Below are positions 36,336 through 50,207 of a stretch of DNA of 64,000 bases, in pieces. Source of the stretch: a bacterium (GTDB lineage: Bacteria > Zhuqueibacterota > Zhuqueibacteria > Zhuqueibacterales > Zhuqueibacteraceae); contig JBOHQX010000300.1 of assembly GCA_050732395.1 (NCBI GenBank), positions 6,312 to 70,311 on the forward strand, read 5' to 3'. Made by a program: the position numbers and the translations under genes. Under the pieces are notes generated by a model, which worked only from the letters and a program-made list of their open reading frames with translations, was not told the DNA's origin and made no database searches. The stretch's first letter is position 1, and the number at the start of each line of letters is the position of its first letter.

Positions 36336-36864
36336 AACGTTTAGTCGTCTGGCTCAGATAACTCCCAAGACTGATCTGATTGCAGAGCCATACGACTCAA
36401 TTCCTCTTCACCAAAACCGTTTCTGCCCTGTCATTCAAGCCTTACAAAATCATCTTCTGAATTACTTCCTTCCTTATAGCCTCTCTCCTGAAGCGCACCA
36501 AATCTTTTCTGGATTTTTCGCAAATCAAGCAAAGTCAAGTATAATAGTGAGCGTAAAGACCTCTCCAGCACGACTGCAAGCATGAAGGGGAAGGATTCCC
36601 TACCGAGAACGGACTCTCCATTTTTCGATTTTGCAGGTCACCTAAATGATAAATTAATTCGTAGCTGTTCGGCTCTACCCTGTCGTCCCCAAAAACATGG
36701 CGACTTCCGATTTACGATCGCAGACCGACAATCGAAAATCGAAAATCGTCAATCCGCTGAACAGTCACATTAGTTCATAATCCGCCCAGCGAGGAAGGGC
36801 GCACGGCAAACAGCGTTCAAACTGCATTTTGGTTGACTTAAATGGACCCGTTTATCTTCTTGCC

Positions 36865-39555
36865 ATGGAGCAGCGTATGCGATACTCTAGCAATTCTGCA
36901 TTGGCTTGGTGTGGGAGACTGGTGTTGTGGTGTGCCGGCTGGGCCAGGCTGAGCCCGCTGATCTGCCTGTTCTTCACCTCAAGGCTGTATGCACAAGCCG
37001 CGCCGAGCAATTTAACGGCGACGACGGCGAGCAACAGCCAGATTAATCTCATCTGGGTCGACAACTCAAACAATGAAATCGCGTTCGTCATATTTCGCGG
37101 AACTGTTAATGGCGGCCCCTATGCTCGCATCGACTCCGTCGATGTAAACACAACGACTTATTCCAACCTCGGTTTGACCGGCAATAGCACGTATTACTAC
37201 GTCGTTTGGGCCAAAAAAAATAACAGCCATTCGGGCTTTTCCAATCAAGCCAGCGCGACGACAAATCCGGATTTGCCCGCAACCCCGACCGGCTTGCTGG
37301 CGAATGCGACAAGCGCCAGCCAGATCAATCTGTCTTGGACGGATGCCTCGGGCACAAACAATCCCACCGCTCGTTTTCGCATTGAACGCAAGACCGGCCC
37401 AGGCGGAACGTACGCGCAAATTGACTCGGTTAACGCGCCGACCACCGTCTATTCGGACAATGGTCTGGGTGGAGGCACCCAATATTACTATCGCGTGCGT
37501 TCGGTCAACGTGACCGGATCTTCAAATTATTCCAGCGAAGCCAACGCGACGACGCAGCCTGCTTTACCAGCTCCCACTGGTTTTGTTGCCTCGGCCGTGA
37601 GTAATACTCAAATCAATCTGTCGTGGACGGACAACTCCAACAACGAAACCGATTTCAAGATCGAGCGCAAGAAAACAGGCGAAACCTCCTTCACGGAGAT
37701 TGCGACGGTTGGTGCGAATGTGACGAGTTACTCGAACACCGGCTTGCTCGGTAATCTCGTCTATTTCTATCGCGTGCGCGCCCATCGCGACGCCGGCTTT
37801 TCAGCCTATTCCAATGAGGACAGCGCAATAACCTTGATGAAAGCACCTGCGAATTTGGTTGCCACGGCCGTCGGCAACAGCCAAATTAATCTGGCGTGGA
37901 GCGATCAAACGGCCAGCGAAACCGGTTTCTCCATCGAGCGCAAGACCGGTGCTGCCGGCAGCTATGCGCAGGTGGGGACTGCAGGCGCGAACGCGACGAG
38001 TTTCTCGGATAATGGCCTGACGGTGAGCACGCAGTATTACTATCGCGTGCGCGCGACCAGTGCGATGAATGTTTCCGTATATTCGAACGAAGCCAACGCC
38101 ACGACGTTCAGTGGCCAGCCCGCAACGCCGGACAGCCTGAGCGCGACGGCGGTGAGCAACACGCAGATTAATCTGGCGTGGAAGGACAAGTCTTCCAACG
38201 AGGATGGTTTTAAGATCGAGCGCAAGCAAGGCGCCTTGGGCACGTATGCTGAAATTGCGACGGTAGGGCCGAACGTGAAGAACTATGCGAACTTCAGCGG
38301 TTTAAGCGTGAATGCCAAATACTTCTATCGCGTGCGTGCTTATAACGCGGCGGGCAATTCGGCCTATAGCAACGAAGCCAGCGCGACCACCTTGCTCAAA
38401 GCCCCGACCAATTTGACAGCCACTCCTGTCAGCAGCAGTCAAATCGATCTCGCCTGGACGGATCAAACCGCAAATGAAATCGGCTTTAAGATCGAGCGCA
38501 AGACCGGGTTTGGAGGCAACTATGCGGAAATTGCGACGGTCGGCGTGAATGTGACAAATTACTCGAACACCGGGCTGGCGAATGGTACGCAATATTTCTA
38601 CCGCGTACGCGCATTTAGCACCACCAATGTGTCGGCCTATTCGAACCAGGCCAACGCCACGACGTTCAGCGACCAGCCCGCGACGCCGGACAGCTTGAGC
38701 GCGACGGCGGTGAGCAACACGCAGATCGATCTCGCCTGGAAGGACAAATCATCAAACGAAGAGGGTTTCAAGATTGAGCGCAAGCAGGGCGCTTTAGGCA
38801 CGTATGCTCAGATAGCGACGGTGGGGCCGAACGTGACGAGCTATGCGAACCTCAGCGGTTTGAGCGCGAATACCAAATACTTCTATCGCGTGCGTGCTTA
38901 TAACGCAGCGGGCAACTCGGCCTATAGCAACGAAGCCAGCGCGACCAGCTTGCTCAAAGCCCCGACCAATGCGGTGGCCATCACCATCAGCAGCAGTCAA
39001 ATCGATATCGCATGGACGGATCAAACCACGAATGAAAGCGGCTTTAAAATCGAGCGCAAGACCGGGGCCGCGGGCACCTATGCGGAAATTGTGACGGTTG
39101 GTGCGAATGTGTCACTCTATTCGAACATCGGGCTGGCGGCGGGCACGCAGTATTTTTATCGCATACGCGCATATAGCTCCACCAATGTGTCGGCCTATTC
39201 AAAGGAAGTGAACGCCACGACTTCCGGACCCGCCAAGCCCGGCAGCCCGGACAACAGCAAAGCGGAGGGCGAGGAGAATGCTGCGATTCCCGAGGGCATT
39301 ACGCTGGCGCCGAACTATCCCAACCCGTTCAACCCGTCGACGACGATAGGGTATACATTGTCGGAAGGCACGCAAGTAAAGCTCATCGTGGTCAATATCA
39401 GCGGCCAGGTCGTTGCGGTCCTGGTCAACGGCTATCAGGGTGCGGGCAGGTATGACAAGATTTTTAAAGGCGGGGATTTACCTTCCGGTGTGTACTACGC
39501 CGTGCTGAAGGCGGGTGCGATTACGAGGACACAGCGGATGTTACTCACGAAATAA
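36865..39555 (+). CDS. secreted 8x fibronectin type III repeat protein with T9SS C-terminal sorting domain
   Basis: Signal-like N-terminus ending LYAQAAP. Eight units of about 95 aa carry (S/T)QI(N/D)L(S/A)W(T/K)D...F(K/R)IERK...Y(F/Y)YRVRA...YSNEA(S/N)ATT. The C-terminus is LAPNYPNPFNPSTTIGY...SGVYYAVLKAG...MLLTK. The start could be the ATG at 36865 or 36877, or the TTG at 36829. Confidence 0.85.
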   Translation: MEQRMRYSSNSALAWCGRLVLWCAGWARLSPLICLFFTSRLYAQAAPSNLTATTASNSQINLIWVDNSNNEIAFVIFRGTVNGGPYARIDSVDVNTTTYSNLGLTGNSTYYYVVWAKKNNSHSGFSNQASATTNPDLPATPTGLLANATSASQINLSWTDASGTNNPTARFRIERKTGPGGTYAQIDSVNAPTTVYSDNGLGGGTQYYYRVRSVNVTGSSNYSSEANATTQPALPAPTGFVASAVSNTQINLSWTDNSNNETDFKIERKKTGETSFTEIATVGANVTSYSNTGLLGNLVYFYRVRAHRDAGFSAYSNEDSAITLMKAPANLVATAVGNSQINLAWSDQTASETGFSIERKTGAAGSYAQVGTAGANATSFSDNGLTVSTQYYYRVRATSAMNVSVYSNEANATTFSGQPATPDSLSATAVSNTQINLAWKDKSSNEDGFKIERKQGALGTYAEIATVGPNVKNYANFSGLSVNAKYFYRVRAYNAAGNSAYSNEASATTLLKAPTNLTATPVSSSQIDLAWTDQTANEIGFKIERKTGFGGNYAEIATVGVNVTNYSNTGLANGTQYFYRVRAFSTTNVSAYSNQANATTFSDQPATPDSLSATAVSNTQIDLAWKDKSSNEEGFKIERKQGALGTYAQIATVGPNVTSYANLSGLSANTKYFYRVRAYNAAGNSAYSNEASATSLLKAPTNAVAITISSSQIDIAWTDQTTNESGFKIERKTGAAGTYAEIVTVGANVSLYSNIGLAAGTQYFYRIRAYSSTNVSAYSKEVNATTSGPAKPGSPDNSKAEGEENAAIPEGITLAPNYPNPFNPSTTIGYTLSEGTQVKLIVVNISGQVVAVLVNGYQGAGRYDKIFKGGDLPSGVYYAVLKAGAITRTQRMLLTK
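38104..39222 (+). repeat. tandem duplication of a two-FN3-domain unit (~560 nt x2)
   Basis: Domains 5+6 (38104-38661) and 7+8 (38662-39222) are much closer to each other than to domains 1-4. For example, TFSGQPATPDSLSATAVSNTQINLAWKDKSSNEDGFKIERKQGALGTYAEIATVGPNV matches TFSDQPATPDSLSATAVSNTQIDLAWKDKSSNEEGFKIERKQGALGTYAQIATVGPNV. Confidence 0.85.
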
Positions 39556-39597
39556 GGTCCGAGCAATCGCTCGTTGCAAGCGATGTAACAGTCGACG

Positions 39598-39640
39598 AAA
39601 GGCCGGTCGTGCCCCATGGGTATGGCCGGCCTTTTGTTTT
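39598..39640. terminator. bidirectional intrinsic-terminator-like hairpin between convergent genes
   Basis: aaaggccgg (39598-39606) pairs with ccggccttt (39626-39634), followed by tgtttt. A-run on the left and T-run on the right. It lies between the FN3 gene stop (39555) and the cytochrome gene stop (39723). Confidence 0.6.
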
Positions 39641-39722
39641 CTAATCAACATGCATGAATTGCCAACAACTTCGTTCGGTTTTGTGCTGGAAAAAGGCGAT
39701 GCTCGCCACTATAAACCATTGC

Positions 39723-40784
39723 TCAAAACATCGGATACTCACTCATAAACACATTTATCTTCCCGTTCATATGCTTGGTGCTGTCAGTGATCACCCCAAA
39801 GCCATCGACGACACCGAAATGACAATTCGTGCATGCCGTAATCGGAAAGGGGTTGTGCCCGGTGGGCGGAAGCCCGTGGCAGGAGCCACAAGAGGCCGTG
39901 GCCGGATTCGTCCAATTTGGCACAGCCGAGTTGCCGGTCATGACGTCAGCGGCGTACATGAATTCGTTATCCCCGGCTTGGGCTTTGCGCAGGCCCCAAT
40001 TGCCATGACAATAGCTGTTGCTGCACGTATTGGCGTTGAAATCATAAACAACTTGCGGCGCGCGATTGCCGCCTTCGGTTTTCAAATTGCTCAGCGGACC
40101 GTTGAATACCAGCTCGGCGCGGTTGTTGTCATCAATATGGCTCGCATCGGAAAAGTTGGTGGGCACAACGTGGCATTCCTGACAAATCTCGCGCGCGGGC
40201 AAGTGCTTGAAATAGCCGAGATGCGTTTGGTGCGCGCCCACGGCGGGTGTGGTGGAGCCGGTTTCTCCATCCAATCCTTCGGGCGGCGCGGCGTTGCGCA
40301 GATCCGCGGCATCACGGCCCGAATTACCGTGGCAATTATTGCAAGCCTCCGGACCGCCTTCCTGCGAGTGGCAAGTAACGCAGGAATTGTTCACTTTCAC
40401 TAGACTATAATCCTGGCCATGGCACGGTTGGCAAGAGGCCAAATCGTAATTATTGTTCTTCAAATAGACGTAATGCGAGCTCGAGCCCGACACCCAACCG
40501 GAAGCGGGGTGCGGGAAACTTGCATGGCAGGTGTAGCACGCGACTCCCGCCGTGCCACCGTCATATTGGCTGCCATGGCACGGGCGGCAATTTTCGGTAT
40601 TGTAGTTTTGCTTCGCCAGCACCGCGCCATGGAAGTTCGGCGAAGACGGGTCGAGCCAGCCTTCGCCGTGCACACTCACTTCGTTTTGCACGCCCGTAGG
40701 GGCATCTTGTGGCTCACTGCAAGCGTGGAACATGAGGGCGGCTAACGAGAGCAACACCACCAAAATTATTTGCATTCTTTTCAT
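39723..40784 (-). CDS. multihaem c-type cytochrome of the CxxxxCH/CxxCH (Geobacter-type motif) family, possible lipoprotein; 9 haem sites
   Basis: The ATG at 40784 gives MKRMQIILVVLLSLAALMFHAC (Cys after the signal-like segment). My count is 8 CxxCH (CRPCH, CYTCH, CQPCH, CVTCH, CNNCH, CQECH, CGSCH, CTNCH) plus 1 CxxxxCH (CSNSYCH), the latter followed by GNWG as in the named family. Confidence 0.85.
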   Translation of the reverse strand: MKRMQIILVVLLSLAALMFHACSEPQDAPTGVQNEVSVHGEGWLDPSSPNFHGAVLAKQNYNTENCRPCHGSQYDGGTAGVACYTCHASFPHPASGWVSGSSSHYVYLKNNNYDLASCQPCHGQDYSLVKVNNSCVTCHSQEGGPEACNNCHGNSGRDAADLRNAAPPEGLDGETGSTTPAVGAHQTHLGYFKHLPAREICQECHVVPTNFSDASHIDDNNRAELVFNGPLSNLKTEGGNRAPQVVYDFNANTCSNSYCHGNWGLRKAQAGDNEFMYAADVMTGNSAVPNWTNPATASCGSCHGLPPTGHNPFPITACTNCHFGVVDGFGVITDSTKHMNGKINVFMSEYPMF

Positions 40785-40826
40785 TTTATTCCCTTTGCGG
40801 GTAATGCCAACAAGTAAACCTTCTTT

Positions 40827-41166
40827 CAACACAGAGACCCAGAGTGCACGGAGTGTCACAGCGCGGCGTTGCCGCAACAAGAAAAACTCACGCAGAGCCT
40901 CGCAAAGATTCGCAGAGATTTCCGGCTGGCAAAGTCGCAACCAAAATCTTTGCTAAAATGCAAAGCTTTACAAGTTTGTATTACAGAGGAAGTACGCTCG
41001 CTCCGTTACTCTCTGTAATACAAAATTGTTGAACTTTGCTTTTTTAGCAAAGTTTTTGATTACGACTCTGCTGCCCTGTAAATCTCTGCGAGTCTTTGCG
41101 AAGCTCTGCGTGCGTCATTTTTTTTTGCGGCTACGCCGCGCTGTGCGCTCCGTGTCTCTGTGTTGG
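40827..41166. repeat. 340-bp imperfect palindrome (two ~160-bp arms, 22-nt centre)
   Basis: The left arm starts caacacagagac (40827) and the right arm ends gtctctgtgttg (41166). The centre is gtattacagag (40978-88) / ctctgtaatac (41011-21). Colinear blocks include cacgcagagcctcgcaaagattcgcagagattt vs the reverse complement cacgcagagcttcgcaaagactcgcagagattt. The arms match at roughly four in five positions by eye. Confidence 0.85.
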
Positions 41167-41348
41167 AAGGCTTTTGCGTTTTTATGCTGTACGAAGTACT
41201 TCAGCTTTCGGCTTGTTTGAAAGAATGATATAGTTCTTTTCCGAGCTATTTCGTGCGGTTCTGTGGCCGAGTCAACCAAGATCCCTACGGGATGACATAT
41301 CAAGGACTTCGTTGAAGACAGATTGCTCAGCGGGACATTGCGCTGCTA

Positions 41349-42569
41349 TCACTTGCCGCCCGGCGCGAGATTCGTATGGCAGATGACGCAAACGGGATCG
41401 CGGCCCTCCACGTCGTGGCAAGAGGCGCAGGATTCCATGTCCCGGCGTGCCAGCCTGGCATGCTGGCCGCCTTCGCTGCCCAAGCCGAGGAGCACGAAAT
41501 CGGGCGTGCGATGGCTGAGCGGAAATGGCGTCGCAAAACCGGCTTCTTGATTGCGCGCGTGGCATTCGGCGCAGAAGGTTTGCACGTTGTGGCACGAGTA
41601 ACAATCCGACTGCCTGGCGCGCAGATCGAGACTGTGTACGAACACATAGTTCAATTCGTGCACGTTTTCTATAACCAAGGGATTTTTGCCGGAAGGTTCC
41701 GGGCGATTTTCCGGCACACTGCGCACCGGAGCGCCACTGGTGAATTGTAATGTAGGCTCCGCGTGGCACTGCTGGCAAAAATTCTCGGTGTGGCAGGAAG
41801 CGCAGTCGTTGGAGGTATGCTCGGCACGCACCAAGCGCTTGTGCTCTTTAGCCCAATCCGGCAGGCGGTGCGAGAGCGGCAGCATGGTCTCTATTCTGGG
41901 ATGGCAAGATTCGCAGGCGTTGGTGGCTTTCGCATCGTTATGGCAGGAATAACACGTGGCCATGCTGGGCAGAAAGGCCACGCTGGGCTTTACCGATTTC
42001 TCAATGCCTTTATGGCAAACGGCGCAGTCGAGATCTTGGCTTTCGATATGCTGTTTGTGGCTGAAGACAATATCCTCGCGAGCAGGAGCTGCAAAGGCTT
42101 CGAGCTGATCAATATCCGTGTGACAATATTTGCAATCCTCCATATTCTCACTCTCGACCTCGGCATGGCAGGTCGAGCATTCGGCATGCTTCGGAAACAA
42201 CAGATCGCCGGCCTTTTCGCTGGTTTGCGCAGCGGCATGGCAAGCGTTGCATTCCGCGCCGACTTCTTCGAGGTGTTGTTTGTGTGAGAATTTAATTTTA
42301 GCCCACTGCGCCACGGGGTCGCCCCATGACGAGGGCCGGTCGTCACCCGCTCGCAAGATGGTCGCTATTGCCAATAGGCCCAATACGAAAACATGCGAGC
42401 AGGCGTTCTTGCCTCTCCGGACAAAAAGGCAAAAGCATACACGCAAAGATGCAGAGACGCAAAGGTCCGCAAAGAAAGCGCTTTGCACAATCTTTGCATC
42501 TCTGTCCCGCAGTCTCGGGATGCGCTTTTCTGTTTTGGGGATGCAGTTCGAAGGCCTAGTGCTGGACAT
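41349..42569 (-). CDS. dodecahaem c-type cytochrome (c7/c3-type domain polymer-like), periplasmic candidate; start uncertain
   Basis: I count 12 CxxCH: CNACH, CSTCH, CKYCH, CAVCH, CYSCH, CESCH, CASCH, CQQCH, CYSCH, CAECH, CASCH, CVICH. Recurring F(S)HKQH motifs are typical of c7-type units. The first ~50 codons of the track ORF translate a repeat-like sequence (ADLCVSASLRVCFCLF), so the true start is probably internal (hydrophobic HVFVLGLLAIATILRA). Confidence 0.85.
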   Translation of the reverse strand: MSSTRPSNCIPKTEKRIPRLRDRDAKIVQSAFFADLCVSASLRVCFCLFVRRGKNACSHVFVLGLLAIATILRAGDDRPSSWGDPVAQWAKIKFSHKQHLEEVGAECNACHAAAQTSEKAGDLLFPKHAECSTCHAEVESENMEDCKYCHTDIDQLEAFAAPAREDIVFSHKQHIESQDLDCAVCHKGIEKSVKPSVAFLPSMATCYSCHNDAKATNACESCHPRIETMLPLSHRLPDWAKEHKRLVRAEHTSNDCASCHTENFCQQCHAEPTLQFTSGAPVRSVPENRPEPSGKNPLVIENVHELNYVFVHSLDLRARQSDCYSCHNVQTFCAECHARNQEAGFATPFPLSHRTPDFVLLGLGSEGGQHARLARRDMESCASCHDVEGRDPVCVICHTNLAPGGK

Positions 42570-42582
42570 TTTTTCTCCCTCC

Positions 42583-43878
42583 TCATGATGCTGCGCTCAG
42601 TTTGGTGAAGAACCAATACTGTAGTCGAAACATGAAACGGACATCATTCTTATAGTAGCGATTGTGCAAGAGTTGGAACTGCCCGTCGAGCGTCAGTTTT
42701 TTCATGGGCCGCACAAGCAGGCCGGCAGCGCCGGAGAACAGGGATTCGCGCTCCGGAGCATCCCCATCTAGTTTGTACGTGGCCCAGGAGAGTTGCACAC
42801 TGGGCATGAACTGGTTGCGGCGCGTGGGATAATAAAACGAGGCGTTGAGGCCGTCCAGATTGCCGGCATAGCCGCCGCGATGCACGTAGCTGACACCGCC
42901 GTACTTCAGCTCCGTTCCCACCGTGAGGCGCAAGGATTCGTCGCCGGAGTAGAAAATTGCGGCAGCATTGCCATAAAGACGCAACGACGGTCGGTACTGG
43001 TAATAAAACCCGCCTTCGACCTCGTGGTTGTCTTCGACATTGAAAGCAGAAAAAATCGAATTCCAGGGCAGGCGGGGAGAGCGGTAGATATAATTGCCGG
43101 TCAAAATCATTTCGGGCGAGATTTCCGCGCGCACGGAAAGATCGCCACGCGCCAGCTCTTCGGCGTGAAAATCATAATCGCTGCGAGCATACAGAGAAGT
43201 TTTGGCATTTACGAACCAGGAGGCGTCGAGCGAGCCCAATCGAGACGCGCGATCCGTGGGCTCGACGTAGAGCGTAAACACGTTGCCCACGGAATCTGCC
43301 CGCTGTGCATCGTAGCCGGGACGCAATTGCCGTTTATCAAAAAAGCTAAGGCTCAGATTCAAATCTGTCTTCGGGGTCCATACCGCTTGTCCGCCGGCCA
43401 TGTAATTTTGGTCGAAATCGTCGATCACTTTGACGCGCTGATCGGCCGGCAGCAAGCCGCCTCCGAATGCTTTCAGGCGTAACCAGGGCGCGGCCCGCAC
43501 CTTGATTTGCGCGCCGTCAATCGTACCCACCGCCACACCGCCGAAAACCGGTTGGCGGCCAAACTGTACATCGACGCGCTGCGCAATGTTCTTCCACTCC
43601 AAATACAAATTGTACATGCGCGCCTTGCCGTCGCCGGCGAGCGGGGTGCTGAAATCGGTGTCAAACTGACCATAGCTGCGCACCAGAATGTTTTTCGTGG
43701 AGAAATCGATTTGATAGGCCTGGTAACCGCGCGCAGAACTGGATTCGATGTTGATCGAGTCGCTGCGCTGGAAGGCATACAACGAGCTGGTGAGCCGGCC
43801 GGAGAGTGTTTGCGCGTTCGACATCGAAGGCAAGGCAAGGCTGAGCAACAGCAGGCAAATATTTCGCAATCGCGTCAT
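42583..43878 (-). CDS. outer-membrane beta-barrel (porin-like) protein
   Basis: Signal peptide MTRLRNICLLLLSLALPSMSNAQ. It shows alternating aromatic/hydrophilic strand patterns throughout (YAFQRS, YQAYQIDFS, VRSYGQFDTDFS, LYLEW, YARSDYDF, FYYQYRPSLRLYGNAA, RFMFRLQYWF). The stop is 13 nt from the maximal start of the 12-haem gene. Confidence 0.7.
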   Translation of the reverse strand: MTRLRNICLLLLSLALPSMSNAQTLSGRLTSSLYAFQRSDSINIESSSARGYQAYQIDFSTKNILVRSYGQFDTDFSTPLAGDGKARMYNLYLEWKNIAQRVDVQFGRQPVFGGVAVGTIDGAQIKVRAAPWLRLKAFGGGLLPADQRVKVIDDFDQNYMAGGQAVWTPKTDLNLSLSFFDKRQLRPGYDAQRADSVGNVFTLYVEPTDRASRLGSLDASWFVNAKTSLYARSDYDFHAEELARGDLSVRAEISPEMILTGNYIYRSPRLPWNSIFSAFNVEDNHEVEGGFYYQYRPSLRLYGNAAAIFYSGDESLRLTVGTELKYGGVSYVHRGGYAGNLDGLNASFYYPTRRNQFMPSVQLSWATYKLDGDAPERESLFSGAAGLLVRPMKKLTLDGQFQLLHNRYYKNDVRFMFRLQYWFFTKLSAAS

Positions 43879-43933
43879 TGTGCGCCGCCTCGGGGCATGT
43901 GTACAATTCTTGCCGTTTAATCCCCACGTGTTA

Positions 43934-44005
43934 TGTCATGCTGGAAGCATCTTTTTCAGTACGGCCGTGGGGCTCGATGCTTGAAAAGATCCTTCCAGGA
44001 TGACA
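43934..44005. repeat. inverted repeat, inner-core member of the TGTCATGCTG... family
   Basis: tgtcatgctggaagcatctttttc (43934-57) pairs with gaaaagatccttccaggatgaca (43983-44005). It lies between the T9SS cytochrome stop and the barrel gene start. Confidence 0.75.
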
Positions 44006-44025
44006 TTGAGACGAACCGGATAGCC

Positions 44026-46836
44026 TTATTTCATCATGACCATCTTCTTCATCATTGAGAACTTCTCGCTTTCGAGCCGATAGAGGTATAGGCCGGAGGG
44101 CACGATGTTCCCGGCCCGGTCGCGACCGTCCCAAACGATGAGATGATAGGCCGCTGCCTGATCGCTATCCACCAGCTGCCGCACCTGATGGCCGAGCGCA
44201 TCGAAGATGGTGATACGCACATGGCCCGGCTGCGGCAATTGATATTTGATCGTGGTTTCAGGATTGAATGGGTTCGGGTAATTCTGCTCGAGCGCATATT
44301 CGGTGGGCGTGCCGCCGCCACGTTCTTCCACCCGCGTGATCACCCCGACCTCGGAAGAGTACGGGCTTTCATTGCCCGAGTAGTCAAAGGTGGACAAACG
44401 ATAATAATATGTGCGTCCGCTCGATACTTGATTGTCGGTGTATTCCGTCTGGATGAGCGTGGCCAGCGGCGTTGTTCCTTTGGGATCAAACCCGGGCGTC
44501 GTGCCGCGATAGATTGCGAAATATTTGAAATCTTCATCAATGGGACCATCCCATCTCAAGTTGACGGTGCCGGCAACATAGCTGGCTGCGATATTAGTTG
44601 GCGGCGCCGGCGCGAGGTTGTCGACCGAATATCCGCTGTCTGGCGCGGTCTCGTAAACCACGCCGTTCGCCTGGCCGGAAATGAAGAACACTGACCAATG
44701 CAGGCCCGCAGCGGTGCTGTCATAAAGCGTGGGCGCGACCGTACTATAGGCCTCGTAAGCGGAAGCCGGTAACCAGCCAACAAAATCCCAAGTTTCGGCC
44801 TGATTGACCGTATAGCGCTTGCCAACGTTGCTCAAGAGGCCATTCGCAATCAGCTCTTCTTTGGAACCGAGCTGAATGCCGACACTGGTGGCAACATCAT
44901 CGACGCGCCTCCAGATCGAATAGCTCGTCACTGGATTGGTTGACGCTGGACCGTCGGCGGCAAATTTCGACCACATGAGGCGTACTTGCTTGCCTTGATC
45001 GCCGCCCACGTCCTCGATTGAGACGATTTCGCCCGCGCCTACATCGCCGGTGGTCAGCGTGGCGATGGAGCGGCGCAGCAAGGCAATTGCGTAGCCGGCA
45101 TTGTGCACACCGCGACTTCCGTCCTCCTCGACAAACAACAAATTGTACCACGCATTGGTGTAGGCGTGACGCCGTTCGATTTCCGCCTGCGACAAGCCCG
45201 GTAGTGTCCAATCATAGTTTGCTTTAATCACCGCATCCGAGGTGCGCGGCGGCAGCAACTGGTCGAGACGGTGCTCCAAGCCTTCGATTTCAAGGCGCGT
45301 GCCCTCAATGGTGCCGTCTTCGTCGAAATCCGCCTTGGCCGCAATATCGTCGAAAGACGTAATCGGGCCGTGGCACGTCTGGCAAACGGCGACGTTTTGC
45401 ACGTCATCGCCATGATCGTCGGGTGTGCCGTTATCCGTGCTTACAGCGAAGGTGTGTTGTCCAACTTTGTCATGTCCGGGCTGGCCCTCTGCCGGCGTGG
45501 CGCCCATATGGCAAGTCACACAGGCATCTGCGACAGCGAACTTGTGGCCGGAGCTCCCGATCGGCACGCCATATTCGATGGCATTGGAACCGTCAATCAT
45601 GTCGGCCTGATTGCTATGATGCGGGCCGAAGCGCGTGGAAAGATTGGCGGGATTGCTGACATAGTCCACCGCATCGCGGCGGCTGATGTGGCATTGCATA
45701 CAGATTTTGCCCATGCCGCCGTAATTGACTACGGTCACACTATCGCCCAGGGTGACATCGTTCAAGGTCCGCACTTGCGCCGGCAACAATTCCGACCGGT
45801 GCGGATCGTGGCAAACCGCGCAACTAATCTGCTCAAAGCCGCTGGACGGCCGGGTATCCGGATTCTTGGGATCGACAACTCGAATAAAGCCCCAGCCGGA
45901 ATGGCAACGAGTGCAACTGGGATTGGTCGAAGGCGAAAGCACACCCACTGCATGCCTGGATGCTTTCCACTGCGTACTGATGCGATGATACGGCGCTTCT
46001 TCATGACAGTAGCCGCACGAGGCCTCGTCCAGGCTCATCGCGATGCTGGTCTTGTCGCCCCGATGCTGCGTTGCCGGCCCATGGCAGTTTTCGCATTGGA
46101 TATTTGCTCTCGCCGCCAGCTTGGGATACTGCGAGACCAGCGCGGCGTAGTTGCCGGGCTGCAACGTCGGCGGAAAAGTCCAGCCGACTTCTCTTGCCAC
46201 GTCATCAAAACCTTCATTGACGGCCGCGGGGCTGTCGTCAAATCCAACATTGTGGCATTCGATGCAAGATTCGTTGTAAGAACCAAGCTGGCCGTCAATC
46301 GCGCGTTTGAAAAATGTTGCATGGCCAGTTTTACCCCAGGCGGTGAAATTGGCGCTGTGGCACAAGCTGCATTGCCCTTCCGAAGGCTCCGAAGGCAAGC
46401 CGTCTGTGCCACCCACCCCGGCGAACTTCGCCGAGGTGATCGTAGTCGTCTTCGGCGCGCTGGTTCCGCCCGCCGTGGTGATCTGCAATTGCACGGTGAA
46501 TTTGCCTTCAATGTCCGGTTTGAAGGTGGTTTGTCTCTTGTTCGTACTATCCAACACCGCAGTGGAGCCTGCAGGCCTTGCCGTCAACGACCAGGCATAA
46601 CTGGTCACGGCGGCATTGAGCGAGTCACGGCCGAGGAGATAGACCACCTGGCCCACGCCGACAACAGACAAACCAGTTGAGCGAGGCGAAGTCCAGCCCA
46701 AGTCATGAATCTCTTGAGGGCTGTAACCTTCGATCTTGATGATCGCATTTGGAACTTGCGCATGCGTGGGAGGAACCAAGAAAGTCGTAGCTATCATCGT
46801 TGCGGCCAGCACACGCCATAGTATCGAGCACATCAT
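44026..46836 (-). CDS. extracellular-type 9-haem c-type cytochrome with N-terminal PKD/Ig-like domain, FN3 domain and T9SS C-terminal sorting domain
   Basis: GGAGG lies 5 nt upstream of the ATG at 46836. Signal peptide MMCSILWRVLAATMIATTFLVPPTHAQ. I count 9 CxxCH: CSLCH, CIECH, CENCH, CGYCH, CTRCH, CAVCH, CMQCH, CVTCH, CQTCH. The FN3-like unit is APAPPTNIAASYVAGTVNLRWDGP...YYYRLSTFDYSGNESPYS. The C-terminus is LEQNYPNPFNPETTIKYQL...SGLYLYRLESE...MVMMK. Confidence 0.85.
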   Translation of the reverse strand: MMCSILWRVLAATMIATTFLVPPTHAQVPNAIIKIEGYSPQEIHDLGWTSPRSTGLSVVGVGQVVYLLGRDSLNAAVTSYAWSLTARPAGSTAVLDSTNKRQTTFKPDIEGKFTVQLQITTAGGTSAPKTTTITSAKFAGVGGTDGLPSEPSEGQCSLCHSANFTAWGKTGHATFFKRAIDGQLGSYNESCIECHNVGFDDSPAAVNEGFDDVAREVGWTFPPTLQPGNYAALVSQYPKLAARANIQCENCHGPATQHRGDKTSIAMSLDEASCGYCHEEAPYHRISTQWKASRHAVGVLSPSTNPSCTRCHSGWGFIRVVDPKNPDTRPSSGFEQISCAVCHDPHRSELLPAQVRTLNDVTLGDSVTVVNYGGMGKICMQCHISRRDAVDYVSNPANLSTRFGPHHSNQADMIDGSNAIEYGVPIGSSGHKFAVADACVTCHMGATPAEGQPGHDKVGQHTFAVSTDNGTPDDHGDDVQNVAVCQTCHGPITSFDDIAAKADFDEDGTIEGTRLEIEGLEHRLDQLLPPRTSDAVIKANYDWTLPGLSQAEIERRHAYTNAWYNLLFVEEDGSRGVHNAGYAIALLRRSIATLTTGDVGAGEIVSIEDVGGDQGKQVRLMWSKFAADGPASTNPVTSYSIWRRVDDVATSVGIQLGSKEELIANGLLSNVGKRYTVNQAETWDFVGWLPASAYEAYSTVAPTLYDSTAAGLHWSVFFISGQANGVVYETAPDSGYSVDNLAPAPPTNIAASYVAGTVNLRWDGPIDEDFKYFAIYRGTTPGFDPKGTTPLATLIQTEYTDNQVSSGRTYYYRLSTFDYSGNESPYSSEVGVITRVEERGGGTPTEYALEQNYPNPFNPETTIKYQLPQPGHVRITIFDALGHQVRQLVDSDQAAAYHLIVWDGRDRAGNIVPSGLYLYRLESEKFSMMKKMVMMK

Positions 46837-46875
46837 AAACACCTCCGTATGAGGTTTTCGCGTAGACTCCAAATT

Positions 46876-47012
46876 GACATAGTTAAGTTAAGATTGCACC
46901 CCTCAAATTGTCATGCTGTAAGCATCCTCCCTAGTTCTTATGCAGGATTTGGGGAAGATTCCTAAAGGAATGACAATCAATATTATCATTCTCGAAGCAA
47001 CTTAACATTGTC
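46876..47012. repeat. 137-bp nested-palindrome MITE/REP-like element (second full copy)
   Basis: The outer inverted repeat is gacatagttaagtta (46876-90) / caacttaacattgtc (46998-47012). The inner core is ttgtcatgctgtaagcatcctccc (46908-31), with a degenerate right partner ggggaagattcctaaaggaatgacaa (46951-76). It sits 40 nt upstream of the T9SS cytochrome start. Confidence 0.8.
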
Positions 47013-47360
47013 GGGCTAAGATCTACCTCTGCTTTTCAGACAGACTGAAAACAGAAGCCCTACGGGCAGCACACGCGGATCAACAACGCACACGGAAAAG
47101 CTTTCAATCCGCGTGAGTTTTTGATCCGTGTGTAAACTTTCAGAATTTTATTCCATGTTTGTTTCCTTAAGCGCCTATGAGGGGTATAGAAGCAACAGTT
47201 ATACCCGGGAATCTTGATATATTTCATTTTAACATATTGATACTTCGATGGGGTTTCTATTTCCATCTGACCGTCTCTATCGGATTTGAGAAACTGCGAA
47301 AAGTTTTTCTCAAATTTCGGAAATTATTCACAATACATTACGGCATTGTGCACAGCGCTT

Positions 47361-47413
47361 GGGAAGATGCTTGCAGCATGACCTCCCTGGTAGTGGCATT
47401 GACTTAACGTTGC
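47361..47413. repeat. solo right half of the MITE/REP-like element
   Basis: gggaagatgcttgcagcatgac (47361-82) followed by gacttaacgttgc (47401-13). No left half is present. Confidence 0.65.
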
Positions 47414-47451
47414 AGTGATAGGTAAGCCACGTCAACAGTCATATCCGACGC

Positions 47452-48969
47452 TTACATACCCGCTGCAATGCCGTGGCATTCATGACAGCTCGTCTCCTTC
47501 CAGGCGTCGCCGATGTCGATCGGATGTGCGAATTCCAATCCTTTCAGGTCCATCTGCTGCACCTCATTGCCGTTGCCTTGTTCAATGATCAAATGGCAGG
47601 CGTTGCAATCGCGGGTAATAGTTTTGCCCTCCGCACTTTGGTGCAAGCCGTCGTGGCAGCGATAACAGCCCGGGCTGAGATAGTGCCCGATGTGATTGGG
47701 ATACGCGCGCCAGCTCGATTTCATGTAGGGAAAATTGTTGCGAGCATAGACTTCCTGCACGCGCTGAATGGCATTGTCTACGGCCTGCCGCTTTTGCGGC
47801 ACCAGGTCGGGATAGTTGGCGTCATAAAACGCGCGAATCGTGGAATCAATCGCAGCCAGCGCCGCTTCTTTGGTTGGATATTCCGGCGTGAGCGCCTCTA
47901 CGGCGGTGGCTTTGATCGAAGGCAGGCTCATGTCGATCAAGCCGTTGCTCATGATAGTGTTCAAAGCAATATTGGGCGCTTGGAAAATGTGCGCAGGTCT
48001 GTTGTGGCAATCGATGCAGTCCATGACCCGAATTTTCTTGGCGTCGATTTGGCCATTTGACATGAGGGCTGGATCAGAGGAATAAACCGTGACTTCGCCT
48101 TTGGCATTGGTGGCACGCACCCAGGGAATGACCTCGCGCGATTCGTCCGTGGCATAGTACTCGATTTTGTTGCTGATGTTCATGTGCCAATGAATCCCCG
48201 AAGTGTGCCCCTCTTCCTGACTGCCGCCGCCGATCTTTATCAGCAGGTTGTAGGCCCAGCGCGTGTTGTGCTCGTCCTTCATGAAGTGCACGCGCATATC
48301 CTGCTTGTTGCCGAAAAACGCCTGCGGCCAGTGGCAATGCTCGCACGTTTCACGCGCCGGGCGCAGATTTTCGATCGGCGTGGGAATCGGCCGGGAATAC
48401 TTCTTGAACAACACCGAATAGACCTGATAAGCGCCGGAGAGCTTCGATTGCACGTACCACCCGGCGCCCGGGCCGACGTGGCAACCGGCGCAGGTCACGC
48501 GCGCATGCGGCGAGTTCTGATAGGCGGTGTATTCCGGCTCCATGACCGTGTGACAGGTTTTGCCGCAAAAGGTCGTGGATTCGCTGAACTCATAGGCTTT
48601 GTAACTGCCCACGGCGGTGAAGAGCAAAAAGAGCGTGGTGACGATTCCCACGATTGCGGCCATGCGGCGATGGCGCGGCAGATTGAAATCGATGTGCAGC
48701 AAGGCGGGCTCGGTCGCGGAGCGGCTGCGGCGGCGATGCTCGCGCCACATGCCGATGGGAACGAGCACCAACCCCAAAACCAAAAACGCAGGAAAGACGA
48801 GATAGGTGAGAATACCGAGATAAGGCATCGTGGTCTCGGCAAAAAAATCCACTAAAAAGAAAAACAATATACAGGCAAAGCTCACGGCCGCAATCCCGGC
48901 GCCCATCATGCTGACGGTGTTGTAGAATGACCCGGGGAGCTTGCCGCTTTTTTCTAGCGATTCTGCCAT
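47452..48969 (-). CDS. inner-membrane multihaem cytochrome, ImcH-like architecture (3 TM + NapC/NirT-like region, 7 haem sites)
   Basis: AAGGAAG lies upstream of the ATG at 48969. Three hydrophobic helices are present (GAGIAAVSFACILFFFLVDFF; YLGILTYLVFPAFLVLGLVLVPIG; MAAIVGIVTTLFLLFTAVG). The haem sites are one CX3CH (CGKTCH) and six CxxCH (CAGCH, CEHCH, CIDCH, CYRCH, CNACH, CHECH). Confidence 0.75.
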   Translation of the reverse strand: MAESLEKSGKLPGSFYNTVSMMGAGIAAVSFACILFFFLVDFFAETTMPYLGILTYLVFPAFLVLGLVLVPIGMWREHRRRSRSATEPALLHIDFNLPRHRRMAAIVGIVTTLFLLFTAVGSYKAYEFSESTTFCGKTCHTVMEPEYTAYQNSPHARVTCAGCHVGPGAGWYVQSKLSGAYQVYSVLFKKYSRPIPTPIENLRPARETCEHCHWPQAFFGNKQDMRVHFMKDEHNTRWAYNLLIKIGGGSQEEGHTSGIHWHMNISNKIEYYATDESREVIPWVRATNAKGEVTVYSSDPALMSNGQIDAKKIRVMDCIDCHNRPAHIFQAPNIALNTIMSNGLIDMSLPSIKATAVEALTPEYPTKEAALAAIDSTIRAFYDANYPDLVPQKRQAVDNAIQRVQEVYARNNFPYMKSSWRAYPNHIGHYLSPGCYRCHDGLHQSAEGKTITRDCNACHLIIEQGNGNEVQQMDLKGLEFAHPIDIGDAWKETSCHECHGIAAGM

Positions 48970-49340
48970 ACTTATCTTCCTTGTTGAATTCTTTGCGGGC
49001 AATGGTGAAACGCTTGCGGTTGTCTCCGTGCCGGCTGCTCTTCTTCGCGCCACAACAAGCAAAGACATTCTTCACGCCCGCCAACTAGCGGCAGCGTAGT
49101 CCATGAACCGATCACATGGAACTGTTCGAAGCGAGCACCTTGTGACAGCCGTGGCAGTGACCGCATATTGGAACGTCGAAAGACAGTTGGGTAACAGCAG
49201 GTCGGGCTAGCAAAACAATTGGAGTGGTGGAGTTACAGCGTATTGGAACATTAAATTGTTGGATGAGTGAAAAAGTTATGCACTTCCTGTGCAGGTAATA
49301 TTGATCTTGCTTTTAAACAAAACCTCACCATTCTCCCTTC

Positions 49341-49396
49341 CTACCTCCACTCCACTACTCCATCAATCCACCAATCCAGTAATCCATCAATCCACA
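49341..49396. repeat. octamer array (ATCCANNA family) directly 3' of the tetrahaem gene stop
   Basis: ctacctcc actccact actccatc aatccacc aatccagt aatccatc aatccaca. It uses the same words as 26871-26921. Confidence 0.8.
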
Positions 49397-49400
49397 GTTT

Positions 49401-49955
49401 TTACTGCTTGGGCGTCGTGTGCGCAATCTTCTTACTGTATTCTGCAAAATTGAACCCCTTGAAATTTGGGCTTTCGGAATTGTGGCAGGTCAAACAGAGT
49501 TTTTCGTCGCCTTTGACCAGGCCGACAGTCTCGCCCTTGATCTTGCCGGTATCGATATCCTTCATGACTTGCATGCCTTTATATTCTGAACCGGCGCCAT
49601 GGCAAGATTCACAGCCTACGCCCTGGCCCGGCTTGAAAGTGGACGCCAGTTGGGCCGCGGCCACTCCCGCTGCGGTATCATGGCATTTCAGACAAGCGGC
49701 ATCTTTTTGCGGATCGGCGATGCCTTTTTGCTTGGCGATCTCCAACGCTGCAGGCGTGGCGAGCGTGGCAAACGCTTTGGCATGCAGACTCTTCTGCCAA
49801 ATCGTGAATGCCGCGCCGGTCTTGGGCGCCAGATGACAAGGCTTGCAGGTATTAGCGCCGACATATTTGGCTTTGCTTTGCGCCAAGAGCGCGCAGGGTA
49901 CGATCGTGCAAATCGCAATGGTCGTAGCAGCCATGCTTTTCAAACGCGCCATCAT
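49401..49955 (-). CDS. periplasmic tetrahaem cytochrome c (cytochrome c554-like family)
   Basis: AAAGGAA lies upstream of the ATG at 49955. Signal peptide MMARLKSMAATTIAICTIVPCALLAQS. There are 4 CxxCH (CKPCH, CLKCH, CESCH, CLTCH). The N-terminal YVGANTCKPCH...WQKSLHAKAF is typical of c554-type proteins. Confidence 0.8.
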   Translation of the reverse strand: MMARLKSMAATTIAICTIVPCALLAQSKAKYVGANTCKPCHLAPKTGAAFTIWQKSLHAKAFATLATPAALEIAKQKGIADPQKDAACLKCHDTAAGVAAAQLASTFKPGQGVGCESCHGAGSEYKGMQVMKDIDTGKIKGETVGLVKGDEKLCLTCHNSESPNFKGFNFAEYSKKIAHTTPKQ

Positions 49956-50207
49956 CTTGGGATTCCTTTCTGAGCGGTGCATGAAGCGTGCACTATGCTT
50001 TGCTTTGTGACTCTGTAATCGCCTACCGCCCGGGCGCTGTAAATCTTCCAGGAGATGAGATCACTTTTTCAGTTCATTCTTCCAACCCCAGAAAAAGCAA
50101 AAGCGCCAGAGCGATGGGGTGAATAGTTACAAAAATGATACAAAAAGTCAAGGCAAAAAAGCCGGGGGCAAAATGAGGCATGTTTATCACTGGCAAATCA
50201 AATTACC

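What the first reader, a model, noticed from the sequence alone, without database searches (positions are those of the whole stretch)
41349..43878. Beta-barrel gene tightly coupled to a 12-haem cytochrome gene: porin-cytochrome pair
The barrel gene's stop (42583) lies at most 13 nt from the open frame of the dodecahaem gene. The barrel is the same size class (431 aa) as Geobacter OmbB-type porin-like proteins that sheath multihaem proteins. The 12-haem protein is built from F-x-H-x-x-H + CxxCH units, like c7-type polymer cytochromes (GSU1996-type dodecahaems). An insertion-into-barrel topology is therefore plausible.

One oddity remains. The 5' ~150 nt of the cytochrome ORF translate a repeat-like DNA motif (tttgcgtctctgcatctttgcg), so the real start codon and signal peptide are unclear.
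Basis: partly seen in the sequence, partly recalled or inferred. Interest (0 to 1): 0.6.

Follow-up and report, generated by a model that had tools for sequence, protein, structure and literature searches.

The report
Porin-cytochrome electron conduit, repeat-disrupted leader
A wide plugless outer-membrane barrel gene and the 12-haem cytochrome gene 13 nt behind it form the core of a known kind of porin-cytochrome electron conduit (the Ignavibacterium type), here in a KSB1/Zhuqueibacterota-like genome, and the odd 5' end of the cytochrome gene is a dispersed palindromic repeat inserted into its signal-peptide region.

Summary
On the minus strand, a 431-aa barrel gene (42583-43878) ends 13 nt before a 406-codon ORF with 12 CxxCH sites (41349-42569).

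The porin-cytochrome reading is supported:
- AlphaFold2 gives a confident barrel (pLDDT 85.7) with 22-24 strands, no plug and no loop over 17 residues. It has no Pfam or NCBIfam hit.
- In every one of 36 related loci, from KSB1/Zhuqueibacterota, Calditrichota, Ignavibacteriota and one Gemmatimonadota genome, the barrel gene is directly followed by a multihaem gene. This has 12 or 14 sites in most loci. In nearly all untruncated loci (not the Gemmatimonadota one) a lipoprotein cytochrome with one CX4CH site comes next.
- This layout matches the Ignavibacterium album pcc cluster IALB_1837-1840 described by Shi et al. 2014. I therefore class it as a new member of a known kind.

Two corrections:
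- Only the first six haems are c7/GSU1996-like. The other six form three di-haem units.
- The 5' oddity is a 174-nt in-frame insertion carrying a roughly 120-nt palindromic repeat that is dispersed through this genome. The closest orthologue lacks it, and two other assemblies contain it. It separates the start codon from the conserved signal peptide, so export and function in this strain are uncertain.

Insertion of the cytochrome into the barrel could not be modelled.

The parts
42583..43878 (-). Barrel gene, 431 aa. It has a signal peptide (MTRLRNICLLLLSLALPSMSNA/QT) and then a plugless beta-barrel of 22-24 strands with short loops. This is the porin-like sheath.
   Evidence: ORF. AlphaFold2 model. 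Foldseek results. No family hits. Homologues at 45-86% identity in KSB1/Calditrichota and 26-36% in Ignavibacteriota/Gemmatimonadota. 784 clusters at 50% identity in the representative library.
42570..42582 (-). 13-nt junction between the barrel stop and the cytochrome ATG. It contains the Shine-Dalgarno-like GGAGGGAG (42575-42582). In several KSB1 orthologues and some others, an ATG overlapping the barrel stop (ATGA) opens the cytochrome frame (MRRKE...). In the window that ATG is out of frame by 1 nt.
   Evidence: Sequence. DNA alignment with L005 and L001. Start-codon survey.
41349..42569 (-). 12-haem c-type cytochrome ORF (406 codons from ATG 42569; mature part about 332 aa from GDDRPSSW). 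It has two c7-type tri-haem units followed by three di-haem units. Proposed periplasmic or barrel-inserted wire.
   Evidence: Haem counts. Pfam Cytochrome_C7, 1.7e-14. PDB profile hit to GSU1996 (3ov0), 3.9e-30. Alignment of 29 orthologues with all 12 CxxCH invariant or nearly invariant.
42386..42559 (-). 174-nt (58-codon) in-frame insertion after codon 3, absent from the closest orthologue. Its core (about 42420-42538) is a palindromic repeat of about 120 nt that is dispersed through this genome.
   Evidence: Protein and DNA alignments. 55 BLAST segments on about 35 contigs. Copy alignment. Hairpin fold. Present unchanged in two other assemblies.
42348..42410 (-). Conserved signal-peptide core of the cytochrome (residues 54-74, KNACSHVFVLGLLAIATILRA) and the proposed cleavage region RA/GDD. 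The candidate internal starts TTG 42446 and GTG 42488 lie upstream, inside the insertion.
   Evidence: Alignments with orthologue N-termini. Hydropathy scan.
39723..40784 (-). Lipoprotein-type cytochrome, 353 aa from ATG 40784, with 8 CxxCH plus 1 CxxxxCH. Signal peptide MKRMQIILVVLLSLAALMFHA/CSEPQD. Proposed outer-face partner.
   Evidence: GSu_C4xC__C2xCH domain hits (TIGR01904, 1.4e-11; PF09698). All 26 orthologues have a signal peptide ending in Cys, followed by S/T and then mostly acidic residues.
40785..41348 (-). 564-nt spacer between the two cytochrome genes. The same spacer is 22 nt in the closest orthologue. It is filled by a MITE-like palindrome of about 360 nt (40823-41183) from a family with hundreds of BLAST segments in the genome.
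   Evidence: Inverted repeats I1, I2, I4 and I6. 397 BLAST segments. L005 gene spacing.
44026..46872 (-). 948-aa nine-haem cytochrome with a T9SS type-A C-terminal sorting domain, immediately upstream of the barrel gene. Likely the cell-surface end of the chain.
   Evidence: Homologous T9SS-tagged cytochromes lie upstream of the barrel in 7 of 10 tested loci, and in two more Ignavibacteriota loci.
47452..49068 (-). Membrane-bound NrfH/NapC-like cytochrome (6 CxxCH plus CGKTCH). Candidate quinol dehydrogenase feeding the chain.
49401..49982 (-). Tetrahaem c554-like cytochrome, 193 aa. Candidate periplasmic shuttle. A 4-haem gene also sits directly upstream of the barrel in Ignavibacteriota loci.

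Best explanation
The barrel gene and the 12-haem gene encode the trans-outer-membrane core of a porin-cytochrome (Pcc) electron conduit of the Ignavibacterium/FCB type.

Proposed mechanism:
- The 431-aa protein forms a wide, plugless outer-membrane barrel of 22-24 strands.
- The 12-haem cytochrome is exported by Sec, matured in the periplasm, and threads into the barrel lumen as an insulated haem wire.
- At the outer face it meets the lipoprotein cytochrome encoded by the third gene (8 CxxCH plus 1 CX4CH).
- That cytochrome in turn can pass electrons to the T9SS-sorted nine-haem surface cytochrome encoded just upstream.
- Electrons would come from the quinol pool through the NrfH-like membrane cytochrome and the c554-like tetrahaem.
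- The direction (reduction of Fe/Mn oxides, humics or partner cells, or electron uptake) is not determined.

Shown here:
- the gene anatomy and haem counts;
- the barrel fold prediction;
- the strict synteny across four phyla;
- the lipoprotein signal of the third protein;
- homology of haems 1-6 to GSU1996.

Inferred, not shown:
- physical insertion of the cytochrome into the barrel;
- complex formation;
- electron flow.

In this particular strain, a dispersed palindromic repeat has inserted in frame between the start codon and the signal peptide of the 12-haem gene. Translation then either starts at ATG 42569 (strong Shine-Dalgarno-like site, 74-residue leader) or at an internal TTG or GTG.
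For: - Tight coupling: 13 nt between the barrel stop and the cytochrome ATG, with GGAGGGAG in between. In several orthologues the start overlaps the barrel stop as ATGA.
- Barrel model: pLDDT 85.7, 24 DSSP strand elements, all connections 17 residues or shorter, no plug domain. Best query TM-scores are to the 24-strand ushers. No porin, FadL, OmpA or MtrB family hit.
- Synteny: all 36 related loci have a multihaem gene (12 or 14 sites in most) directly downstream of the barrel. Nearly all untruncated loci then have a cytochrome with an atypical CX3-4CH site. A distant member (E = 1e-33) is still followed 5 nt later by a c7-family cytochrome.
- Third protein: 26 of 26 orthologues have a lipoprotein-type signal ending in Cys.
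- All 12 haem sites are invariant or nearly invariant across 29 orthologues, and ten further His are invariant or nearly so.
- Literature: the I. album pcc cluster has a porin-like protein (IALB_1839), a 400-aa 14-haem periplasmic cytochrome (IALB_1838), an outer-membrane cytochrome with an atypical haem site (IALB_1837) and an associated periplasmic cytochrome (IALB_1840). Pcc barrels are predicted to have 18-22 strands (PMC4245776). OmbB-like PCCs have been reported in Ignavibacteria (PMC7399161).
- The barrel and the 12-haem gene are single-copy in the 8.2-Mb genome.
Against: - No complex model could be made. The cytochrome model alone is poor (pLDDT 58.8), and its structural matches cover only the N-terminal c7/ActA-like part. 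Rod shape and fit to the lumen are therefore untested.
- MtrB did not appear among the 50 listed structural matches of the barrel. There is no sequence similarity to any PDB chain.
- Direct similarity to Geobacter OmbB/OmaB was not tested. I. album's own genes were not retrieved; only Ignavibacteriaceae MAG orthologues were.
- I. album does not grow on Fe(III) or Mn(IV) oxides (PMC4245776), so the physiological acceptor of this type of cluster is unknown.
- In this strain the signal peptide is displaced by 58 inserted codons, and the ancestral ATGA start is out of frame. Export may be impaired.
Confidence: 0.8

Rival explanations
1. The module is of the Pcc type, but in this strain it is disabled or decaying. 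The repeat insertion separates the start codon from the signal peptide, so the 12-haem protein is not exported or matured and the conduit does not work.
For: - The 174-nt insertion is absent from the closest orthologue.
- The ancestral ATGA start is out of frame by 1 nt.
- No ATG lies between the insertion and the hydrophobic core. The TTG and GTG candidates inside the insertion have no evident Shine-Dalgarno site, and the TTG lies within the repeat hairpin.
- The inserted sequence is almost stop-free in all six frames, so its open frame says little about selection.
- A second MITE-like element splits the two cytochrome genes.
- A decayed fragment of a paralogous CX4CH cytochrome lies nearby.
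Against: - The rest of the gene is intact, with all 12 haem sites and the conserved His.
- The insertion is a multiple of three and in frame with an ATG that has the strongest Shine-Dalgarno-like site in the window.
- Two other KSB1 genomes carry different insertions at the same junction, also in frame.
- The same allele is found in three assemblies.
- Long N-terminal extensions of Sec signal peptides are known elsewhere; this last point rests on my own knowledge.
Confidence: 0.2
2. The barrel is an ordinary diffusion or substrate channel, or an envelope-biogenesis barrel, that merely sits among cytochrome genes. The 12-haem protein is a soluble periplasmic electron store like GSU1996.
For: - The barrel's structural matches are to ushers and to Occ/AlgE-type channels.
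- One family member carries a precomputed LptD-type Pfam hit (PF04453).
- The N-terminal half of the cytochrome is homologous to the soluble GSU1996.
Against: - The barrel-cytochrome adjacency holds in all 36 loci across four phyla, often with overlapping or nearly abutting stop and start codons.
- The window protein and three orthologues have no hit to any channel family.
- A plugless barrel of 22-24 strands with loops of 17 residues or fewer would be an open hole unless a partner fills it (inference).
Confidence: 0.05
3. The barrel is a T9SS-associated outer-membrane anchor or shuttle (PorP/SprF- or PorV-like) for the T9SS-tagged nine-haem cytochrome upstream, not a sheath for the 12-haem protein.
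For: A T9SS-tagged cytochrome is encoded near the barrel in KSB1, Calditrichota and Ignavibacteriota loci.
Against: - No PorP_SprF or FadL/PorV family hit.
- 22-24 strands is more than I recall for those barrels (about 14-16; my own knowledge).
- In Ignavibacteriota loci a tetrahaem gene lies between the T9SS cytochrome gene and the barrel, whereas the 12/14-haem gene always abuts the barrel.
- Three of ten tested loci have no T9SS tag on the upstream cytochrome yet keep the trio. The Gemmatimonadota locus shows no upstream cytochrome and keeps the barrel plus 14-haem pair.
Confidence: 0.05

Closest known systems
Ignavibacterium album pcc cluster IALB_1837-1840 (Shi et al. 2014, PMC4245776)
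   Same: - Same gene order and content: porin-like barrel, then a periplasmic multihaem cytochrome of about 400 aa, then an outer-membrane cytochrome with an atypical CXnCH site, plus an associated periplasmic cytochrome.
- Ignavibacteriaceae MAG orthologues of the window barrel (30-36% identity over the full length) show exactly this layout, with 14-haem partners.
   Different: - The window and its KSB1 subclade have 12 haems; they lack the C-terminal di-haem unit.
- The host phylum is KSB1/Zhuqueibacterota.
- The upstream T9SS-tagged nine-haem cytochrome is twice as long.
- I. album's own sequences were not retrieved, so the link rests on MAG orthologues and on matching published descriptions.
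Geobacter sulfurreducens OmbB-OmaB-OmcB and Ext porin-cytochrome complexes
   Same: - Three-part logic: porin-like barrel, periplasmic multihaem cytochrome and lipoprotein multihaem cytochrome.
- The barrel is much smaller than MtrB.
- The GSu_C4xC__C2xCH atypical haem domain is present in the outer cytochrome.
   Different: - The haem numbers differ (OmaB 8 and OmcB 12, against 12 and 9 here).
- Sequence similarity to OmbB/OmaB was not tested here. Shi et al. call the Ignavibacterium proteins only distantly related to the Geobacter groups.
- A T9SS-delivered extra cytochrome is encoded here.
Shewanella MtrCAB (PDB 6R2Q)
   Same: The working model is the same: a cytochrome wire sheathed by a barrel, contacting a lipoprotein cytochrome outside.
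   Different: - No MtrB_PioB Pfam hit.
- 22-24 strands in 431 aa.
- The MtrA/DmsE model TIGR03508 scores 18 bits against a cut-off of 192.
- The profile hit to chain 6r2q_A, which I take to be MtrA, is only E = 0.0027.
GSU1996 dodecahaem c7-polymer cytochrome (PDB 3ov0)
   Same: Twelve haems. Haems 1-6 of the window protein are homologous to its c7-type units (profile E = 3.9e-30).
   Different: - Only two c7-type units are present, against the four of GSU1996 as I recall them.
- Haems 7-12 sit in three repeated di-haem units of the form PLSHRxPD(W/F)...CxxCH-x(4-8)-CxxCH.
- GSU1996 is soluble and, as far as I know, is not encoded next to a barrel.

Membership tests
Porin-cytochrome (Pcc) gene cluster, as defined by Shi et al. 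2014 | A gene for a porin-like outer-membrane barrel lies adjacent to a gene for a periplasmic multihaem c-type cytochrome. | tested here: met
   13-nt spacing in the window. The adjacency holds in all 36 related loci.
Porin-cytochrome (Pcc) gene cluster, as defined by Shi et al. 2014 | An outer-membrane (lipoprotein) multihaem cytochrome is encoded in the cluster, often with an atypical CXnCH site. | tested here: met
   8 CxxCH plus CSNSYCH. TIGR01904 hit, 1.4e-11. Lipoprotein-type signal with conserved Cys in 26 of 26 orthologues.
Porin-cytochrome (Pcc) gene cluster, as defined by Shi et al. 2014 | The barrel is smaller than MtrB, with about 18-22 predicted trans-membrane strands. | tested here: inconclusive
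   431 aa. The AlphaFold2 model has 24 DSSP strand elements, two of which are only 6 residues long, so 22 or 24. This is at or just above the published range.
Porin-cytochrome (Pcc) gene cluster, as defined by Shi et al. 2014 | Sequence similarity to OmbB/OmaB-type proteins (BLAST E < 0.01). | not tested
   No Geobacter sequence was at hand. Orthology to Ignavibacteriaceae MAG clusters was shown instead. The published I. album cluster has the same layout.
Porin-cytochrome (Pcc) gene cluster, as defined by Shi et al. 2014 | The proteins form a complex that transfers electrons across a membrane. | not testable with these tools
   This needs purification and proteoliposome assays, or a multimer model with haems.
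MtrAB/PioAB/MtoAB | The barrel belongs to the MtrB_PioB family, and the partner is an MtrA/DmsE-type decahaem. | tested here: not met
   No MtrB_PioB hit at E <= 0.01. TIGR03508 scores 18 bits against a cut-off of 192.2. No PDB sequence hit for the barrel.
GSU1996-type c7 polymer cytochrome | The whole protein is built of tandem c7-type tri-haem domains. | tested here: not met
   Homology covers profile positions 37-172 only. FSHKQH occurs twice. Haems 7-12 are in di-haem units.
Nutrient porin, FadL, OmpA, TonB-dependent receptor, usher, PorP/SprF | A match to the family profile and its typical strand number or plug. | tested here: not met
   No Pfam or NCBIfam family for the window barrel or three orthologues. 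No plug or extra domain in the model.

The most novel reading that the evidence does not exclude
The barrel/12-14-haem/lipoprotein trio is the core of an extracellular electron-transfer system specific to the FCB superphylum. Its barrel would be a plugless sheath of about 24 strands, a fold class not yet solved for any Pcc. Its outermost cytochrome would be delivered and anchored by the type IX secretion system rather than by the routes known from Shewanella and Geobacter. The junction between the barrel and cytochrome genes would be a recurrent landing site for palindromic repeats that alter the cytochrome's leader, and possibly the barrel-to-cytochrome stoichiometry.
Probability: 0.4. Interest if true: 0.6.

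Novelty: new member of a known kind. Interest (0 to 1): 0.35.

Why it matters
- It extends a published but biochemically untested type of outer-membrane electron conduit (the Ignavibacterium-type Pcc) to KSB1/Zhuqueibacterota and Calditrichota. The 2024 Zhuqueibacterota genome survey (PMC11683472) contains no mention of iron or extracellular electron transfer.
- The barrel family has 784 clusters at 50% identity but matched no Pfam or NCBIfam model in any member tested here, apart from one precomputed LptD-type hit, so it is mostly annotated as hypothetical. A profile for it, combined with the conserved neighbours, would improve the prediction of electroactive bacteria in metagenomes.
- The predicted wide, plugless barrel is a good target for the first structure of a non-Mtr porin-cytochrome complex.
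- The repeat insertion is a small natural experiment on how much a Sec leader can be lengthened.

Tried and rejected
- Cytochrome fold. The AlphaFold2 model built with 29 orthologues was poor (pLDDT 58.8). Its Foldseek matches covered only the ActA-like N-terminal part, so it says nothing about rod shape.
- Barrel against PDB sequences. The profile search gave only chance hits, E >= 0.097.
- Sequencing runs. No RNA-seq 5' mapping or read-level check of the insertion was possible. As a substitute, two other assemblies were shown to carry the identical insertion.
- Promoter and terminator scan. Counts were at shuffle level.
- Rfam scan of 39400-50400. Only a spurious miRNA-hairpin match, far below threshold.
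- C-terminal truncation by the downstream MITE. I considered whether the 12-haem form is a truncation artefact. I rejected this because nine other KSB1 orthologues end at the same place, without the last di-haem unit.
- Open frame of the insertion as evidence of selection. I rejected this as weak, because the element is nearly stop-free in all six frames.
Full report
**Observation.** On the minus strand of the window lies a run of cytochrome genes:
- a c554-like tetrahaem (49401-49982);
- an NrfH/NapC-like membrane cytochrome with 6 CxxCH plus CGKTCH (47452-49068);
- a 948-aa nine-haem protein with a T9SS sorting domain (44026-46872);
- a 431-aa protein without haem sites (42583-43878);
- a 406-codon ORF with exactly 12 CxxCH (41349-42569);
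- an ORF with 8 CxxCH plus one CSNSYCH (39723-40940).

The stop of the 431-aa gene (TGA, 42585-42583) is followed by GGAGGGAG, five A's and the ATG at 42569. That is 13 nt between the genes. The coordinates and counts of the finding are correct. FSHKQH occurs only twice, at residues 94 and 169.

**The barrel.**
- The protein has no Pfam or NCBIfam hit at E <= 0.01, and its profile finds nothing real among PDB sequences.
- With an alignment of 49 homologues, AlphaFold2 gives a confident model: mean pLDDT 85.7 and pTM 0.75. It consists of an N-terminal signal helix followed by 24 DSSP strand elements up to residue 426.
- Two neighbouring elements (189-194 and 200-205) are only six residues long, so I read the barrel as 22 or 24 strands.
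- All connections are 17 residues or shorter, and there is no extra domain.
- Foldseek against the PDB gives the highest query TM-scores for the 24-strand usher pores FimD and PapC (0.55 and 0.53). The 18-strand Occ/AlgE channels score 0.37-0.46 and the listed OmpT/Omp38/chitoporin-type porins about 0.3. MtrB is not among the 50 rows shown.
- A barrel this wide, with no plug and no long loop, would be an open hole unless another protein fills it. This is inference, but it fits a sheath role.

**Distribution and neighbours.**
- Close homologues (45-86% identity) are unnamed proteins of KSB1 and Calditrichaeota MAGs.
- A scan of species-representative genomes found 38 loci. Matches run down to 26-36% identity over the full length in Ignavibacteriota, 'Bacteroidota' MAGs and one Gemmatimonadota genome.
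- A profile search of 1.84 billion representatives finds 784 clusters at E <= 1e-3 and 158 at E <= 1e-30.
- In every one of the 36 loci examined, the barrel gene is followed directly, on the same strand, by a multihaem gene of roughly 350-430 codons. It has 12 or 14 CxxCH in most loci. In nearly all loci not cut by a contig end (the Gemmatimonadota locus is the exception), a cytochrome with one or more CX3-4CH sites comes next (gene calls).
- A distant member (E = 1e-33) is still followed 5 nt later by a Cytochrome_C7 protein.
- All 26 third-gene products have a signal peptide ending in Cys followed by S/T and then mostly acidic residues, i.e. a lipoprotein signal. From memory, the acidic residues after the Cys resemble the surface-lipoprotein export signal of Bacteroidota; I did not test this.
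- The barrel and the 12-haem gene are single-copy in the 8.2-Mb genome.

**The cytochrome.**
- An alignment of 29 orthologues shows all 12 haem sites invariant or nearly invariant, and ten more His invariant or nearly so.
- The alignment profile hits GSU1996 (PDB 3ov0) at E = 3.9e-30, but only over profile positions 37-172. It also hits the ActA subunits of alternative complex III. The match to chain 6r2q_A (I take this to be MtrA; the PDB copy names it otherwise) is only E = 0.0027.
- Haems 1-6 therefore lie in two c7-type units, each introduced by FSHKQH.
- Haems 7-12 lie in three di-haem units. Two of them begin with PLSHR(L/T)PD(W/F).
- Most orthologues outside a KSB1 subclade carry a fourth di-haem unit at the C-terminus, giving 14 haems. 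Nine other KSB1 orthologues end where the window protein ends, so the 12-haem form is a natural variant and not a truncation.
- The AlphaFold2 model of the cytochrome is poor (pLDDT 58.8), and its structural matches cover only the N-terminal part. Shape and fit to the lumen could not be tested.

**The odd 5' end.**
- Relative to the closest orthologue (barrel 86% identical, cytochrome 84-86% depending on the start used), the window has a 174-nt, 58-codon insertion directly after ATGTCCAGCA (42386-42559).
- Its core, about 42420-42538, is an imperfect palindrome. BLAST finds it in both orientations on about 35 other contigs of the same genome. It folds into a long hairpin.
- The 564-nt spacer between the 12-haem gene and the lipoprotein gene is 22 nt in the closest orthologue. 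In the window it holds a larger palindromic element, with 397 BLAST segments genome-wide.
- In several KSB1 orthologues and some others, an ATG overlapping the barrel's TGA (ATGA) opens the cytochrome frame and gives MRRKE... followed by the hydrophobic core. In the window a 1-nt difference puts that ATG out of frame, and the ATG at 42569 is in frame instead.
- The conserved hydrophobic core and the RA/GDD site are residues 54-76 of the ORF.
- Possible starts are ATG 42569, GTG 42488 and TTG 42446.
  - ATG 42569 has the strongest Shine-Dalgarno-like site in the window and gives a 74-residue leader.
  - The TTG gives MRVCFCLFVRRGKNACSHVFVLGLLAIATILRA, a plausible Sec signal, but it lies inside the hairpin.
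- The inserted sequence is almost stop-free in all six frames, so the open frame alone is weak evidence for selection.
- Two other KSB1 genomes carry different insertions at the same junction, also in frame with the junction ATG. Three out of three by chance is about 0.04. However, at least seven other loci have stop-containing spacers of 60-160 nt at this junction, so I treat this as a hint only.
- The insertion is not an assembly artefact of this MAG. A contig of another NCBI assembly and an independent Logan assembly of run SRR27067776 are 99.99-100% identical across it.

**Comparison with what is known.** Shi et al. 2014 (PMC4245776) defined pcc clusters and listed one in Ignavibacterium album:
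- IALB_1839, porin-like;
- IALB_1837, an outer-membrane cytochrome with an atypical haem motif;
- IALB_1840, an associated periplasmic cytochrome.

They give 18-22 predicted strands for Pcc barrels. This is the layout found here in Ignavibacteriaceae MAG orthologues: a 4-haem gene, the barrel, a 14-haem gene of about 400 codons, then a gene with 6 CxxCH plus 1 atypical site. Arbour et al. 2020 report OmbB-like PCCs in Ignavibacteria (PMC7399161). A FeGenie-based study reports iron-reductase genes in KSB1 MAGs (PMC10732223). The Zhuqueibacterota survey contains no mention of iron or extracellular electron transfer (PMC11683472). The window's pair is therefore a new member of a known kind. It is not a member of the MtrAB family or of the GSU1996-type polymers (see the membership rows).

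**A companion worth noting.** The nine-haem cytochrome upstream carries a T9SS type-A sorting domain. So do the upstream cytochromes of 7 of 10 tested loci, including Ignavibacteriota ones of about 530 aa, and of two further Ignavibacteriota loci. A full-text search found no paper combining type IX secretion with multihaem cytochromes and extracellular electron transfer. That library is incomplete, so this is not proof of novelty. An earlier follow-up in this scan already treats that gene. Here it supports the view that the barrel trio is the trans-membrane core of a larger chain.

**Verdict.** The system is an Ignavibacterium-type porin-cytochrome conduit in a KSB1-like genome (confidence 0.8 for the partnership and role). 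The insertion topology is inferred. In this strain the cytochrome's leader is disrupted by a mobile palindromic repeat, which leaves about a one-in-five chance that the conduit is impaired. Interest is moderate to low (0.35).

Noticed in passing
window 40785-41348: The spacer between the 12-haem gene and the lipoprotein cytochrome gene is 564 nt, against 22 nt in the closest orthologue. It is filled by a palindromic MITE-like element of about 360 nt, whose family gives 397 BLAST segments across the genome.
   Followed up: partly
window 43929-44006, 46909-47001 and 47358-47384: Copies of a short inverted-repeat element (core GTCATGCTGGAAGCATCTT) flank the T9SS cytochrome gene. One copy lies in the 147-nt spacer in front of the barrel gene, and a related copy lies just downstream of the 12-haem gene (41278-41302).
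   Followed up: no
L009:7290-7500 and L011:1979-2200: Two other KSB1 genomes carry different repeat insertions at the same barrel/cytochrome junction. One is of a G/C-run type. The other shares the CTTTGCGTCTCTGCGTCTTTGCGTG arm with the window. Both are in frame with the junction ATG.
   Followed up: partly
L031, L040, L043 and L044 (Ignavibacteriota), upstream of the barrel: Nine-haem cytochromes of about 530 aa carry a T9SS type-A sorting domain (TIGR04183 or PF18962, above the curated cut-off). The T9SS-tagged cytochrome therefore accompanies this barrel module in three phyla.
   Followed up: partly
barrel family (P0001-P0222): The profile finds 784 clusters at 50% identity, yet the window protein and three orthologues match no Pfam or NCBIfam model. 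The members that carry a source name in the first search are all called 'hypothetical protein'.
   Followed up: partly
genome contig C262:4038-4220: A 61-residue fragment is 77% identical to barrel residues 62-122. It is either a remnant or a piece of a related strain binned into the genome.
   Followed up: no
window 36133-36336 (genome C300:42444-42647): A 69-residue fragment is 72% identical to residues 232-300 of the lipoprotein cytochrome, including the CX4CH region. It is a decayed second copy.
   Followed up: no
whole genome (G000): The C-terminal ~100 residues of the nine-haem protein, which include its T9SS sorting domain, hit a very large number of places in the 8.2-Mb genome by tblastn. 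This indicates very heavy use of type IX secretion.
   Followed up: no
window 47452-49068: The membrane cytochrome has CGKTCH (CX3CH) as its first haem site and NrfH/NapC-like N-terminal similarity. It may be the quinol-oxidising entry point of the chain.
   Followed up: no
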